DNA of 64,000 bases from Candidatus Atabeyarchaeum deiterrae (lineage in GTDB: Archaea > Asgardarchaeota > Atabeyarchaeia > Atabeyarchaeales > Atabeyarchaeaceae): contig CP147780.1 of NCBI GenBank assembly GCA_037310415.1, positions 1,376,001 through 1,440,000 on the forward strand, read 5' to 3'. Below, one piece after another: positions 3,128 through 19,980 of the stretch (positions are counted from its first letter, which is position 1; each line of letters begins with the position of its first letter). The notes under the pieces were generated by a model. That model saw nothing but the letters and a program-made list of their open reading frames with translations, had not been told where the DNA came from and searched no databases. The translations under genes were made by a program, and so were the position numbers.

Positions 3128-4141
3128 TTGGTGCATGAAACTGGCGTTTCATATTACGGTTGCACGCAAGCTGACCACGCAAGAGAAGACTTCAAAGAGA
3201 TGGTTGACCACAACTGTAACGCCGTCCAGTTCGCCATAAGTGAGTTTGACTGCCAGCACTGGTGGCCAGCCATGAAGGAGATAACCAAGATCGCGAAAAA
3301 CGAGTTTGGGTTGAGAGTTCACGTCAGCCTGTGGGGATTTGGAAGAGTCTTCGGCGGTGAACCCATCTCAGCGTTTCTTGAAGAACACGCAGATTATCGC
3401 CAAGTCACTTCGGCAAGCGGAAAGCTGCGCCCAGCAGCATGCATCAACACGGAATTCAGAAAATACTACCTAACCTGGGTCAAATCATTCCTGAGAGATC
3501 TCACTTGGGATTACCTTTTCCAAGATGAACCTCACTACGCTGTGCCCACCTCAAGTGAGTGGACATGCCGATGCGAGACATGCCAACAACTCTTCAAGCA
3601 GAAATATGGCTATGAAATGCCCAAAGAGTTGACTGACGACGTTCGCAAATTTAGAGAACAAAACTTGGTTGCACTGCTCGTCGAGGCAGCGCGACTAATC
3701 AAATCCACTGATTCGAGCAAGAAGGTGATTACCTGCCTATTGCCTGGGGGAGGAGAACAGTCCGGAATCGGTGATTGGTCAAGAATCGCTTCAGCACAGG
3801 AGATCGATGTTCTTAGTACTGATCCATATCCGTACGTATTCGGAAAACCGGCAATGCGCCCATACGTGACTGAAATAACAAAGAAAGCCTTGAAGTACTG
3901 CAAAGATTACAGCAAGATGTCACAAATCTGGGTTCAACTGTTTAGTGTCCCCGCTGTCAGGACAGAAGAGGTCAAGGAAACCATTAAGCTAATAGACGAA
4001 CTGGATCTTGATGGAAAGAAGGTCGACAGCATATTTTGCTGGTCCTATAGGGCAACAAAAGGGACAACGATAAGCTGCACTAGGCCAGACTTGGCATGGA
4101 AACTCGTCGGAGAGGCATTCAGAGAAGTTCTTGAGAAATAA
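3128..4141 (+). CDS. Glycoside hydrolase-like TIM-barrel protein (GH42/GHL-like)
   Basis: FQDEPH putative acid/base motif, CRCETC..FKQKYG zinc motif, LSTDPYP. Confidence 0.6.
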   Translation: MVHETGVSYYGCTQADHAREDFKEMVDHNCNAVQFAISEFDCQHWWPAMKEITKIAKNEFGLRVHVSLWGFGRVFGGEPISAFLEEHADYRQVTSASGKLRPAACINTEFRKYYLTWVKSFLRDLTWDYLFQDEPHYAVPTSSEWTCRCETCQQLFKQKYGYEMPKELTDDVRKFREQNLVALLVEAARLIKSTDSSKKVITCLLPGGGEQSGIGDWSRIASAQEIDVLSTDPYPYVFGKPAMRPYVTEITKKALKYCKDYSKMSQIWVQLFSVPAVRTEEVKETIKLIDELDLDGKKVDSIFCWSYRATKGTTISCTRPDLAWKLVGEAFREVLEK

Positions 4142-4298
4142 TGCCACTCCTCTTGGGGATTCTGCGTCTCGACCTTTGAGAAGTTCTCAATCGATTTTCC
4201 GTCCGAGCCTTGCGGTCGCCTAATATTTAAACGGTGACCGAGTCTGATCCATTGTTGAGGAACAGTTCTATCTGTCTCGCCCAAAGGGGGCATACATC

Positions 4299-5120
4299 TT
4301 GATTCGTAACGTGTGGGTAATAGAGAAACTCAGTGGTCGTTGTCTCTTCCATCTCGCCTACGAAAAAGAGCTGAAGGAACCTGACCTGATTTCTGGCTTC
4401 CTATCAGCACTTACCAGTTTCTCAGAGGCTGAGCTCAAAGGAGAAAGGCTTTCAGTAGTCGAAACAGAAGGTAGAAAGTGGGTTTATCGTTATGTTGAAC
4501 CCCTGATATTTGTAGTAACAGGCGCAAAAAAGGATCCTGAATCACATCTAAAAGCTCAAGTGAGCTACTTAGCCAACGTGTTTCTTGACGCGTTTCCGGA
4601 GCTAAAAGCAGAGACTGCGAGAGGTTTCTTTGAAAAGTGGTCGGGGGACAGAAATTACTTTGGTAGACTTGAGCCGCTAGTTGACCAACTCGTAGGGCAA
4701 TGGAGCGAAGTTGATCAAGTGAATAAGGCTGCCAAAGCCCTAGACGTGGTGGAAATCTACCAAAGAATCTTTGACGCCATAATCTCCGATGTGAAGGCAT
4801 GCAATGGTAAGATCTCAACCGAATTTCAATCTGCCGTGAAGGAGTTTGACGACGCGTGCAAAGCGAAGATCACGTACGCGGTTTCGGAGTTCAGCCCGAC
4901 GCTTGACCTCTTAAACATAAATGTCTTCTCAACAGGATACGAAAAGCTGAAAGAAGAACTCGGTTTACTATTGACGAGACTAATGAGAATACTGAAGGAT
5001 CATCTTCCAGCCGGTGAAACTGAGAGAATCATGAAGTCCAAAATAGTCCCGATCATGAAAACCGATTGGAAAAGGATAGACGTGTACAATATTGACCCCG
5101 TTCTGATTTCACTTCTGTAA
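4299..5120 (+). CDS. Longin-like domain protein (N-terminal longin, helical C-terminus)
   Basis: MIRNVWVI..SGRCLF...DLISGFLSALTSFSE is the typical longin beta-beta-alpha start seen in Asgard proteins. Confidence 0.7.
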   Translation: MIRNVWVIEKLSGRCLFHLAYEKELKEPDLISGFLSALTSFSEAELKGERLSVVETEGRKWVYRYVEPLIFVVTGAKKDPESHLKAQVSYLANVFLDAFPELKAETARGFFEKWSGDRNYFGRLEPLVDQLVGQWSEVDQVNKAAKALDVVEIYQRIFDAIISDVKACNGKISTEFQSAVKEFDDACKAKITYAVSEFSPTLDLLNINVFSTGYEKLKEELGLLLTRLMRILKDHLPAGETERIMKSKIVPIMKTDWKRIDVYNIDPVLISLL

Positions 5121-18799: not shown

Positions 18800-19402
18800 C
18801 TAAAGGATTCCTATGTAAGTCGTCTTGTACACTAAATAACCCATGCCATTCATGGTTACTAAGGATCCCAAGAACACTCCGGCATACCACACTACTATGG
18901 ATGACAAGAGGTCACTTCCTAACGGAATCAAGACAGCCATATATGATCCAACAATGAAAGTTACGACGACGTTCTCAACCAGTATCGCGATTTGAACCCA
19001 TAAGAGCCCTCTTTTCCCTCTGTTGACAAACATCATGCAGACTTTGTAGCCAAGAAACGCGGCCAGAAAGTTAGCGACAGGCCCCCCAATGACATCAAAC
19101 GCGACGGTCGCGCTGGTTGCAAAGCCATAGTAGTTTCCAACGATGCACCCAATGGAAACTCCAAGCACACCAGCATAGCCGAATACAAACGCAAGAGGCA
19201 TAAGGCAATCGGCGATGCGGATCTGTGCGGGACCAAAACCAAAAACCCAGAAGACTATGACCATGGTCGCATACAAAGCTGCCACAATAGATGAAATGGC
19301 AACTCTCACTGCGGGCTTCTCGTATGGCTTTCCAGAAAGGCCAGAGGCACCCGTTTTCTTTGTTTTGAGCAGAATGCTCGAATATCCTCTTCTAAAGTTC
19401 AA
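18800..19402 (-). CDS. queT: QueT-family 7-deazaguanine (queuosine/archaeosine precursor) transporter
   Basis: AALYA..FGFGPAQIRIADCL..GVSIGCIVGN..DVIGG, about 5 TM helices; TTG start 9 nt after GGAGGTGA. Confidence 0.8.
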   Translation of the reverse strand: MNFRRGYSSILLKTKKTGASGLSGKPYEKPAVRVAISSIVAALYATMVIVFWVFGFGPAQIRIADCLMPLAFVFGYAGVLGVSIGCIVGNYYGFATSATVAFDVIGGPVANFLAAFLGYKVCMMFVNRGKRGLLWVQIAILVENVVVTFIVGSYMAVLIPLGSDLLSSIVVWYAGVFLGSLVTMNGMGYLVYKTTYIGIL

Positions 19403-19485
19403 AACCTTTTCTCACCTCCACTTCCCGGGGTTTGTTTTGACGCGGAACGGTTGGGAGGACCCACTCACCCGCGCACATTCGCTTT
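19403..19485 (-). promoter_or_regulatory. Structured 5' leader of queT; candidate riboswitch
   Basis: GCGCGGG/UCCGCGU stem, loop containing CCUCC complementary to the SD GGAGG, A-rich linker CAAAACAAA; TATA-like TTTAATA at 19507-19513. Confidence 0.5.
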
Positions 19486-19593
19486 CTAGTGTTGACTCAG
19501 GCTTAGTATTAAATCCTTGTGTCGCGATCTTGGGTTCATGTCCTGTTGTTCCATCTTCTTGGAGGCTTTCCTCTAATAACGCACCCATGGCCG

Positions 19594-19980
19594 TCAGAAG
19601 AGTTCGATCCAGATCCCATTCGGGTCTTCAACATAGGCCCAGCGGCCACTGTTGGACTTCATTTCCAGCAAAATGCAATGTCCTGCAGCACCAGCTTCTT
19701 CCAAAGCCTTGTCCAAGTCCTCGACCTGAAAGGCAAGATGATCCAATCCTTCACCTACACTATACTCTTTGTTGTAGGGGCTGTTTTTCCCATAATAGTT
19801 CAGTTCAAGTATGAGGCCACCCTTCTCGCTTTCCAGTGCGACGGTTTCTCCTTTGGTTTGATCAATTTTGCCGCGATTCACCATCTTCATGCCGAGAAGT
19901 TTCGTATAAAAGTCGATGGATTTCTCGAGATTCGTCACTCTTATTCCTACATACGTGAATTTAGCTTTCATAACTCTCAC
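19594..19980 (-). CDS. VOC/glyoxalase family protein
   Basis: VTNLEKSIDFYTKLLG, LELNY, HLAF, DPNGIWIEL. Confidence 0.88.
   Translation of the reverse strand: MRVMKAKFTYVGIRVTNLEKSIDFYTKLLGMKMVNRGKIDQTKGETVALESEKGGLILELNYYGKNSPYNKEYSVGEGLDHLAFQVEDLDKALEEAGAAGHCILLEMKSNSGRWAYVEDPNGIWIELF

What the first reader, a model, noticed from the sequence alone, without database searches (positions are those of the whole stretch)
19403..19513. Candidate new archaeal 7-deazaguanine (preQ0/preQ1) riboswitch upstream of queT
Seen (minus strand RNA): GCGCGGG-UGAGUGGGUCCUCCCAACCGU-UCCGCGU-CAAAACAAA-CCCCGGGAAGU-GGAGGUGA-9 nt-UUG. It contains a 7-bp GC-rich stem (19474-19468 with 19446-19440). The loop can form UGGG/CCCA internally, or pair outward (GGGU with ACCC; CCUCC with the SD GGAGG). 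An A-rich linker follows the stem. A TATA-like TTTAATA at 19507-19513 puts the transcription start just ahead of the stem. Established: bacterial queT genes are controlled by preQ1 riboswitches that are SD-sequestering pseudoknots (class I has a stem plus A-rich tail); archaea use preQ0 to make archaeosine, and very few archaeal riboswitches are validated. Inference: a translational OFF switch with preQ1-like topology, but a sequence I cannot match by eye to classes I-III, possibly sensing preQ0 or archaeosine base.
Basis: partly seen in the sequence, partly recalled or inferred. Interest (0 to 1): 0.85.

Follow-up and report, generated by a model that had tools for sequence, protein, structure and literature searches.

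The report
Candidate archaeal preQ0 riboswitch before queT
The short RNA leader in front of this Asgard archaeon's queT transporter gene is one copy of a strongly conserved pseudoknot, widespread in archaea and absent from Rfam, that can hide the ribosome-binding site and sits only before genes for uptake or synthesis of the tRNA-modification precursor preQ0, so it is most likely an undescribed archaeal riboswitch class.

Summary
Window 19403-19480 (minus strand) holds a GC stem, an A-rich linker, a CCCCGG block, and a loop CCUCC facing the SD GGAGG, 12 nt before the UUG start of a QueT gene (Pfam 71 bits).

The stem is not a chance fold. The same motif, GCGGGUG-(loop)-CCGUUCCGC-(A-rich)-AAAYCCCGG-SD, occurs in at least 120 species genomes by exact pattern. 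A covariance model finds it in about 27 of 151 Asgard, 28 of 151 Thermoproteota and 51 of 121 Nitrososphaerales genomes sampled.

Two helices covary. One is P1, including GCGG/CCGC changing to GCGC/GCGC. The other is a loop-to-SD pseudoknot with more than 55 compensating sequence versions. A TATA box lies at a fixed distance, so transcripts start just before P1.

Every instance with enough DNA precedes queT, queC, a queE-like gene or GAT-queC. This genome has arcTGT but no queC, queD, queE or queF, so it depends on salvage.

No Rfam 15 family matches, preQ1-I/II/III included, and no paper was found. Ligand binding is untested. preQ0 is inferred from the regulon.

This scan already noted the same motif on other genomes. 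My tests agree and add inner-P1 covariation and a candidate second pseudoknot helix.

The parts
19507..19513 (-). TATA-like box TTTAATA, the candidate promoter of the queT leader
   Evidence: Sequence. In 125 related upstream regions, TATA-like hexamers pile up at -36..-31 from the G of GCGG, with an A-rich BRE-like stretch at -41..-36. The window's box starts at -41.
19403..19480 (-). Whole leader motif as matched by covariance model R1
   Evidence: The match G000:C1:1395403-1395480(-) scores 64.2 bits, E 3.1e-16. It is the only copy in the 2.76-Mb genome.
19469..19474 (-). P1 5' strand, GCGCGG
   Evidence: Pairs with 19440-19445. Covariation of the closing pairs: GC 39, AU 12, GU 6, CG 4, UA 4, UG 2, and 2 unpaired of 69. 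The inner pair changes G:C to C:G in 8 sequences, and there is one C:G to U:A change.
19465..19468 (-). Junction GUGA (consensus GURR). G5 and U6 are invariant
   Evidence: Alignments A2, A4, A5 and A6.
19461..19464 (-). GUGG, candidate 5' strand of a second pseudoknot helix (P2) with CCCC at 19427-19430
   Evidence: The fourth pair covaries. A at this place goes with U in the linker in 9 of 12 sequences, while G goes with U in 41 of 205. This is suggestive only.
19454..19458 (-). Anti-SD CCUCC in the hairpin loop
   Evidence: Pairs with the SD at 19415-19419. Family-wide compensatory changes are shown.
19446..19450 (-). Conserved junction CCGUU, just 5' of the P1 3' strand
   Evidence: The G and the last U are invariant. 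The middle U is sometimes A, G or C.
19440..19445 (-). P1 3' strand, CCGCGU
19431..19439 (-). A-rich linker CAAAACAAA (family consensus ..AUAAA)
   Evidence: The AAA just before the C-run is invariant in A2. The length upstream of it varies from 5 to 17 nt.
19425..19430 (-). Conserved CCCCGG block (YCCCGG)
   Evidence: Invariant CCCGG in 69 of 69 sequences of A2. Rare variants are CCAC, ACCC and CCCCAA.
19412..19419 (-). Shine-Dalgarno GGAGGUGA, the 3' strand of pseudoknot P3
18800..19402 (-). queT gene (200 aa, UUG start), the regulated gene
   Evidence: Pfam PF06177 QueT, 71.4 bits against a cut-off of 33.7. ORF.

Best explanation
The roughly 75-nt 5' leader of queT is a member of an undescribed, archaea-specific riboswitch class. 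It probably senses a free 7-deazaguanine base, most likely preQ0, and represses translation.

**Shown by comparative data**
- The transcript most likely starts a few nucleotides before helix P1.
- P1 (nnGCGG/CCGCnn) forms.
- A 5-8 nt anti-SD in the P1 hairpin loop pairs with the Shine-Dalgarno region downstream. This gives a pseudoknot (P3).
- The element occurs only before queT, queC, queE-like and GAT-queC genes.

**Inferred**
- Three nearly invariant single-stranded pieces meet at the P1/P3 junction of an H-type fold and make the ligand pocket. They are GU(RR) after P1, CCGUU before the P1 return strand, and AAAYCCCGG at the end of the A-rich linker.
- GUGG pairs with YCCC of the linker to form P2, which has a conserved U.C opposition in its middle.
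- The A-rich linker lies in the P1 minor groove, as in preQ1-I.

**Proposed switch**
- Without ligand, GUGG pairs locally with the 3' flank of the anti-SD (UGGG/CCCA in this window, GUGG/CCAC in most). The SD stays free.
- With ligand, P2 and the junction are stabilised. The anti-SD is released to pair with the SD, and queT translation stops.

In this genome the switch would tune uptake of preQ0. The organism needs preQ0 for archaeosine and cannot make it.
For: **Conservation**
- An exact 24-base core pattern hits at least 120 species genomes, nearly all archaeal.
- Model R1 hits about 27 of 151 Asgard genomes, 28 of 151 Thermoproteota and 51 of 121 Nitrososphaerales.

**P1 covariation**
- Score 0.216 against 0.064 in shuffles, with 0 of 500 shuffles as high.
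- Score 0.275 against 0.100, again 0 of 500.
- The inner pair is GC in 91 sequences and CG in 8.

**P3 covariation**
- The position flanking CCUCC/GGAGG is paired in 50 of 110 sequences. Shuffles give 30.2, sd 3.6, max 42.
- 18 non-canonical loops have matching SD changes, for example ACAUCUC/GAGAUGU, GUCUC/GAGAC and UUCGCA/UGCGAA.
- Further versions include UUCCGAC/GUCGGAA, UUGCCUCC/GGGGGCAA, UACCGC/GUGGUA and CCAAC/GUUGG.
- Own-partner helix score is 5.95, against 5.25 for permuted partners (sd 0.10, max 5.58).

**Gene context**
- Of 175 instances, 132 precede QueT alone and about 30 precede QueT-QueC.
- The rest precede QueE-like plus QueC, QueE-like plus GAT-QueC, or QueC-QueT.
- The 6 instances without a call all lie at locus ends.

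**Promoter**
- The TATA peak is at -36..-31.

**Physiology of this genome**
- TGT is present at 286 bits.
- There is no true QueC (22.6 bits, N-terminal part only).
- No QueE-like gene, no PTPS/QueD and no QueF were found.

**P2 hint**
-.

**Established background**
- Bacterial queT, yhhQ and queCDEF are controlled by preQ1 riboswitches that sequester the SD in pseudoknots (PMC11625349).
- Archaea insert preQ0 into tRNA to make archaeosine (PMC5372724).
Against: - No ligand binding, structure probing or expression data exist for any member.
- No RNA-seq was available to confirm the 5' end.
- The single-sequence fold energy is ordinary (z +0.35).
- The junction nucleotides are nearly invariant, so their pairings cannot be proved by covariation.
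- The P2 support rests on about three lineages.
- The sequences compared are related, so shuffle statistics overstate significance.
- The regulon is equally compatible with preQ1, CDG or another 7-deazapurine as ligand, and formally with a protein that binds the leader.
- The window's P3 is only 5 bp, and its TATA lies 6 nt off the family mode.
Confidence: 0.75

Rival explanations
1. The leader is a protein-binding translational operator. A protein of the archaeosine pathway, such as arcTGT or ArcS, or a dedicated RNA-binding regulator would recognise the conserved junction. That junction may act as a partial tRNA mimic. Binding would stabilise the SD-masking pseudoknot.
For: - Invariant single-stranded nucleotides can be protein contacts as well as a ligand pocket.
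- AGUGG in the loop and AAAUCCCGG recall tRNA D-loop and T-arm sequences.
- The covariance model's one clear false hit was a tRNA T-arm (L198).
Against: - No conserved regulator gene travels with the motif. The neighbours differ across Asgard, Bathyarchaeia, Nitrososphaerales and Methanomethylicia.
- The element is small, compact and conserved at nucleotide level across phyla, like metabolite aptamers.
- The same regulon in bacteria is controlled by three riboswitch classes (PMC11625349).
- The tRNA resemblance is short and was not tested further.
Confidence: 0.1
2. It is a riboswitch of this fold, but the ligand is not preQ0. Candidates are preQ1, 7-carboxy-7-deazaguanine (CDG), archaeosine base, queuine or guanine.
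For: - About 30 operons are QueT-QueC.
- At least one complete genome with such an operon (Bathyarchaeum tardum, G152) has QueC but no PTPS/QueD. Its transporter may therefore bring in CDG rather than preQ0.
- Bacterial QueT is linked to preQ1 (PMC5372724).
Against: - The window's genome and two other Asgard genomes lack QueC, QueD and QueF but keep TGT. The base they must import is the TGT substrate itself. By established knowledge, that substrate is preQ0 in archaea.
- QueE-like and QueC operons under the same motif point to the pathway end product.
Confidence: 0.12
3. It is a ligand-independent leader: a constitutive SD-masking structure, an RNA thermometer or an mRNA-stability element that happens to be inherited with queT.
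For: - SD:anti-SD pairing alone can attenuate translation or sense temperature.
- The fold energy of the single sequence is unremarkable.
Against: - Simple masking does not need about 25 invariant nucleotides outside the helices.
- The motif also sits before queC and queE-like first genes, not only queT.
- It is found in thermophilic hot-spring bins as well as marine and soil lineages, according to the record titles.
Confidence: 0.03

Closest known systems
preQ1-I riboswitch (Rfam RF00522, types 1-3)
   Same: - A short leader at the 5' end of queT and queC-type mRNAs.
- One GC stem followed by an A-rich tail and a short C/G pairing back into the loop (H-type topology).
- SD sequestration and translational control in types such as T. 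tengcongensis and E. coli.
- The ligand is a 7-deazaguanine.
   Different: - No covariance-model match, even at E<=10.
- About twice the size.
- The loop carries a separate anti-SD that makes a third helix with the SD.
- The conserved junction sequences differ (GURR, CCGUU, AAAYCCCGG).
- Found only in archaea.
- The likely ligand is preQ0, not preQ1.
preQ1-II riboswitch (COG4708/queT motif, RF01054)
   Same: - The same regulated gene family (queT).
- The SD is a strand of a pseudoknot helix of the aptamer.
   Different: - No model match.
- preQ1-II is an HLout fold with an embedded P4 hairpin and U.A-U triples, and is limited to Bacillota (PMC11625349).
- No U-rich triplex strand is seen here.
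preQ1-III riboswitch (RF02680)
   Same: - The anti-SD sits in a hairpin loop and docks with an SD in the 3' tail.
- It lies upstream of queT.
   Different: - No model match.
- preQ1-III is about 100 nt with five helices and places the SD far from the pocket (PMC11625349).
- Here the SD helix abuts the conserved junction.

Membership tests
preQ1-I (RF00522) | Scores at or above the family's covariance-model threshold | tested here: not met
   There is no hit at gathering score in the window, none at E<=10 in 19330-19620, and none at E<=1 in 20 other instances.
preQ1-I (RF00522) | H-type pseudoknot: P1, an A-rich L3 tail, and P2 between the loop and the 3' tail | tested here: inconclusive
   P1 and the A-rich tail are present, and P1 covaries. 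The candidate P2, GUGG:YCCC, has only one covarying pair, from about 3 lineages.
preQ1-I (RF00522) | Binds preQ1 through a loop cytidine | not testable with these tools
   This needs binding or structure experiments.
preQ1-II (RF01054) | Covariance-model match and an HLout fold with P4 | tested here: not met
   The best hit in the whole genome is 17.5 bits against a cut-off of 47, and it lies elsewhere. Nothing is found in the leader or in 20 relatives.
preQ1-III (RF02680) | Covariance-model match | tested here: not met
   No hit.
Riboswitch (generic cis-regulatory metabolite sensor) | Conserved structured 5' UTR element with covarying helices | tested here: met
   P1 and P3 covary. The TATA box lies at a fixed distance.
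Riboswitch (generic cis-regulatory metabolite sensor) | Association with genes of one metabolic pathway | tested here: met
   All 169 instances with enough downstream DNA precede queT, queC, a queE-like gene or GAT-queC.
Riboswitch (generic cis-regulatory metabolite sensor) | Direct, selective ligand binding and ligand-dependent gene control | not testable with these tools

The most novel reading that the evidence does not exclude
This would be the first riboswitch class confined to archaea, and the first natural aptamer tuned to preQ0. It would be built as a double pseudoknot, with P1/P2 and P2/P3 each in an H-type relation. The ligand would be read at a conserved U.C opposition inside P2. 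Rare natural variants that turn U.C into U:A (linker CCAC) or that lose the GG of CCCCGG would be ligand-independent or re-tuned versions.
Probability: 0.35. Interest if true: 0.9.

Novelty: new variant of a known kind. Interest (0 to 1): 0.85.

Why it matters
Archaea are known to use very few riboswitch classes, mainly TPP and fluoride, and both are shared with bacteria (PMC5473149). A widespread class specific to archaea would change that picture. It would span Asgard archaea, Bathyarchaeia, ammonia oxidisers and Methanomethylicia.

It would also have practical uses:
- It would give a fourth, structurally independent solution to 7-deazaguanine sensing.
- It would provide a marker for preQ0 salvage and auxotrophy in uncultured archaea.
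- It would offer a small ligand-controlled translation switch for archaeal genetics.

The class is directly testable with about 75 nt of RNA and commercially available preQ0.

Tried and rejected
- **Rfam 15.** Searches at gathering and at permissive E-values on the window, the genome and 20 relatives found nothing relevant.
- **Literature.** Searches for archaeal preQ1/preQ0 riboswitches, Bathyarchaeota riboswitches and a 'preQ1-IV' found nothing. The 2024 review of preQ1 classes does not mention archaea.
- **Single-sequence fold.** It is not better than shuffles.
- **The search for related loci.** It was replaced by a DNA pattern scan.
- **RNA evidence.** No RNA holder is listed for this locus.
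- **RNAalifold.** It predicts only P1.
- **Mutual-information scan.** A column-by-column scan of 100 aligned members gave no further clean Watson-Crick pair beyond P1.
- **Rejected pairings:**
  - An alternative helix CGGG:CCCG competing with P1 would be broken in the GCGC-type variants, which keep CCCCGG.
  - CCG (junction) with CGG (linker) is broken in the CCCCAA variants, which keep CCGUU.
  - A local hairpin GGG:CCC around the anti-SD is not conserved; see GAA, AUG and AAG in L088, L125 and L073.
- **False or chance hits set aside.** L121 (Actinomycetota MAG), L166 and L167 (low complexity), L198 (tRNA T-arm) and L199.

Full report
**1. What is in the window**

On the minus strand, 19480-19400 reads GAAUGU-GCGCGG-GUGA-GUGG-GU-CCUCC-CAA-CCGUU-CCGCGU-CAAAACAAA-CCCCGG-GAAGU-GGAGGUGA-GAAAAGGUU-UUG.

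The ORF that starts at the UUG (18800-19402) is a QueT transporter: PF06177, 71.4 bits against a cut-off of 33.7. The gene upstream on the same strand is a glyoxalase-family gene ending at 19594. That leaves a 191-nt intergenic region.

The minimum-free-energy fold of the leader is no better than shuffled sequence, z = +0.35. On its own, then, the stem proves nothing.

**2. It is a conserved family**

QueT homologues in related genomes carry the same leader in 11 of 13 loci.

An exact pattern of the core, GCGGGTR-N4-26-CCGTTCCGC-N5-14-AAAYCCCGG, was scanned over one genome for each of 185,579 prokaryote species. About one chance hit was expected.

By record title the hits are:
- nearly all Bathyarchaeia;
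- some Nitrososphaerota/Thaumarchaeota;
- Methanomethylicota and Asgard (Promethearchaeota, Hodarchaeota);
- one Methanocella-labelled bin;
- two bacterial-labelled bins;
- one evident chance hit in an Actinomycetota bin.

A covariance model (R1) was built from 69 diverse copies (A2). It found the motif in:
- 28 of 151 genomes of the window's own phylum, one of them a false hit;
- 30 of 151 Thermoproteota, two of them false;
- about 51 of 121 Nitrososphaerales at E<1e-4.

The window's phylum is Asgard. Three of its genomes coincide with records labelled Promethearchaeota, Hodarchaeota and Promethearchaeati. The window's genome holds exactly one copy.

**3. Helices supported by covariation**

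*P1 (nnGCGG/CCGCnn).*
- The closing pair is GC 39, AU 12, GU 6, CG 4, UA 4, UG 2, and unpaired in 2 of 69 sequences. The covariation score is 0.216 against 0.064 in shuffles, with 0 of 500 as high. Slid controls give 0.05 or less.
- In the more divergent Nitrososphaerales set the invariant core itself covaries. GCGG/CCGC becomes GCGC/GCGC in 8 sequences and GUGG/CCAC in one. Over 100 members the inner pair is GC 91, CG 8.

*P3, the loop anti-SD with the SD region.*
- Among 110 copies with CCUCC and GGAGG, the next position is paired in 50. Shuffles give a mean of 30.2, sd 3.6, max 42 of 2000. The pairs are mainly C:G, with A:U and U:A.
- The 18 copies without the canonical pair have matching changes on both sides: ACAUCUC/GAGAUGU, GUCUC/GAGAC, UUCGCA/UGCGAA, CACCUC/GAGGUG, UGCUUCCC/GGGAGGCA.
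- Further versions are CUCGCA/UGCGAG, UUCCGAC/GUCGGAA, UUGCCUCC/GGGGGCAA, UACCGC/GUGGUA and CCAAC/GUUGG.
- In 98 diverse members the best loop-downstream helix scores 5.95 with the member's own partner. With permuted partners it scores 5.25 (sd 0.10, max 5.58 of 5000). More than 55 distinct helix sequences occur.
- The sequences are related, so these numbers overstate independence. The many fully compensated versions in different clades do not depend on that.

**4. Other conserved parts**

About 25 nucleotides outside P1 and P3 are nearly invariant. They are GU after P1, the G and last U of CCGUU before the P1 return strand, AAA, and CCCGG.

In an H-type pseudoknot made of P1 and P3, three pieces meet at the helical junction: the 5' end of loop 1, the 3' end of loop 2 and the 3' end of loop 3. 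That junction is where preQ1-I and SAM-II bind their ligands (my own knowledge of those structures). The link to a pocket here is inference.

I tested candidate pairings among these pieces. The only one with any support is GUGG, just 5' of the anti-SD, with YCCC of the linker.
- The outer pair is G:C in 158 sequences, G.U in 41 and A:U in 9.
- A goes with U in 9 of 12 sequences, while G goes with U in 41 of 205.
- This rests on about three lineages.
- The middle of this helix is a conserved U.C opposition (203 of 224). It becomes U:A in five sequences with linker CCAC, or UCAC in one.

Three other candidate pairings are contradicted by natural variants. They are listed under tried and rejected.

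**5. Position in the transcript**

In 125 distinct upstream regions, TATA-like hexamers start at -36..-31 from the G of GCGG: 93 of 143 occurrences fall there. AT content peaks at 0.83, and an A-rich stretch precedes the box.

With the usual archaeal spacing, the TATA box is centred about 26-27 nt before the start (established knowledge). The transcript would then begin about 3-8 nt before P1.

The window's TTTAATA starts at -41, and its P1 is two pairs longer. No RNA run holds the locus, so the 5' end is inferred.

**6. Gene context and physiology**

Of 175 instances, 132 are followed by QueT alone and about 30 by QueT-QueC. Two are followed by a QueE-like radical-SAM gene plus a QueC-like gene. 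One each is followed by QueE-like plus a 483-aa GAT-QueC fusion, by QueC-QueT, and by QueT-QueC-QueT. The 6 without a call lie at locus ends. No other gene family was seen.

The window's genome is one contig, 97% complete.
- It has an arcTGT-type TGT: 286 bits, in a 570-aa frame.
- QueC matches only marginally, through a PP-loop: 22.6 bits.
- No QueE-like gene was found with the query used.
- No PTPS/QueD and no QueF were found.

Two other complete Asgard genomes with the motif also lack QueC and QueD. These organisms must import the TGT substrate. In archaea that substrate is preQ0, the precursor of archaeosine (PMC5372724, and established knowledge). So preQ0 is the most economical guess for the ligand, and negative feedback the expected sign.

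**7. Mechanism proposed**

*Shown:* P1, P3, the gene association and the promoter spacing.

*Inferred:* ligand binding at the junction stabilises P2 and P3, so the SD (19419-19412) is held by the anti-SD (19458-19454) and translation of queT falls.

Without ligand, the G-rich strand GUGAGUGG can pair locally with the anti-SD flank. In the window this is UGGG/CCCA, -5.0 kcal/mol. In most members it is GUGG/CCAC. The SD is then free.

Across 128 members, the loop:SD duplex energy averages -12.8 kcal/mol and the local fold -6.0 kcal/mol.

**8. Comparison with known classes**

The closest in design is preQ1-I: a stem, an A-rich tail, a short pairing back into the loop, and SD masking. The anti-SD loop docking with the SD resembles preQ1-III. 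An SD that forms part of a pseudoknot helix before queT resembles preQ1-II (PMC11625349).

None of the three covariance models matches this leader or 20 relatives. It is therefore not a member of any of them.

Reviews list TPP and fluoride as the riboswitch classes most often found in archaea (PMC5473149). My searches found no archaeal preQ1 or preQ0 riboswitch.

**9. Earlier notes of this scan**

The same motif was already noted on at least 13 other genomes, with the same reading. I tested the main claims independently, and they hold. New here are:
- the inner-P1 compensatory changes;
- the P2 register test;
- the variant subclasses;
- the salvage-only gene content of this genome.

**10. Verdict**

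This is a real, strongly supported riboswitch candidate of a new class. The ligand and the direction of control remain to be shown experimentally.

Noticed in passing
L028 (CP122380, Bathyarchaeum tardum) 3353-5097; G152: The motif controls a QueT-QueC-QueT operon. The complete genome has QueC but no PTPS/QueD hit. About 30 other operons are QueT-QueC. This suggests salvage of a precursor upstream of preQ0, such as CDG, in these lineages.
   Followed up: partly
L078 4492-6691: The motif is followed by a QueE-like radical-SAM gene and a 483-aa GATase-QueC fusion (GAT-QueC, 193 bits to QueC). This is the fusion linked to archaeosine formation in some Crenarchaeota (my own knowledge).
   Followed up: partly
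L215, L218, L227, L228 (Nitrososphaerales): The linker reads CCAC or UCAC instead of CCCC. This turns the conserved U.C opposition of the candidate P2 into U:A. All four also have CCGAU instead of CCGUU. They may be re-tuned or ligand-independent variants.
   Followed up: partly
L196, L197, L230, L232, L234, L236, L237, L241, L242, L245: This subclass has CCCC-AAAA-GGGA instead of CCCCGG-nnn-GGAGG, and GUGGUU after P1. It lacks the GG of the conserved block and uses weak SD-like GGGAA sequences.
   Followed up: no
window 19434-19440 with 19399-19406 (minus strand): The MFE fold pairs linker UCAAAAC with GGUUUUGA, which covers the UUG start codon. I saw no equivalent by eye in the closest relative (L002), so it may be chance or a local extra mask.
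   Followed up: partly
L089, L090 (bacterial-labelled MAG contigs), L097 (Methanocella-labelled): A typical Bathyarchaeia-type motif plus QueT sits on contigs binned as Acidiferrales, Krumholzibacteriaceae and Methanocella. This is probably mis-binning and was not checked.
   Followed up: no
L008, L009 (Asgard family f16): These QueT homologues have no motif upstream. Instead they follow a divergent small gene. QueT is not always under this leader.
   Followed up: no
L198 1501-1567: The covariance model's weak hit here is a tRNA T-arm (GGGUUCAAAUCCCGG). The motif's AAAYCCCGG resembles the 3' half of a T-arm.
   Followed up: partly
window 1-64000: No Rfam family reaches its gathering score anywhere in the 64-kb window. 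That means no tRNA, rRNA or known cis-element.
   Followed up: no
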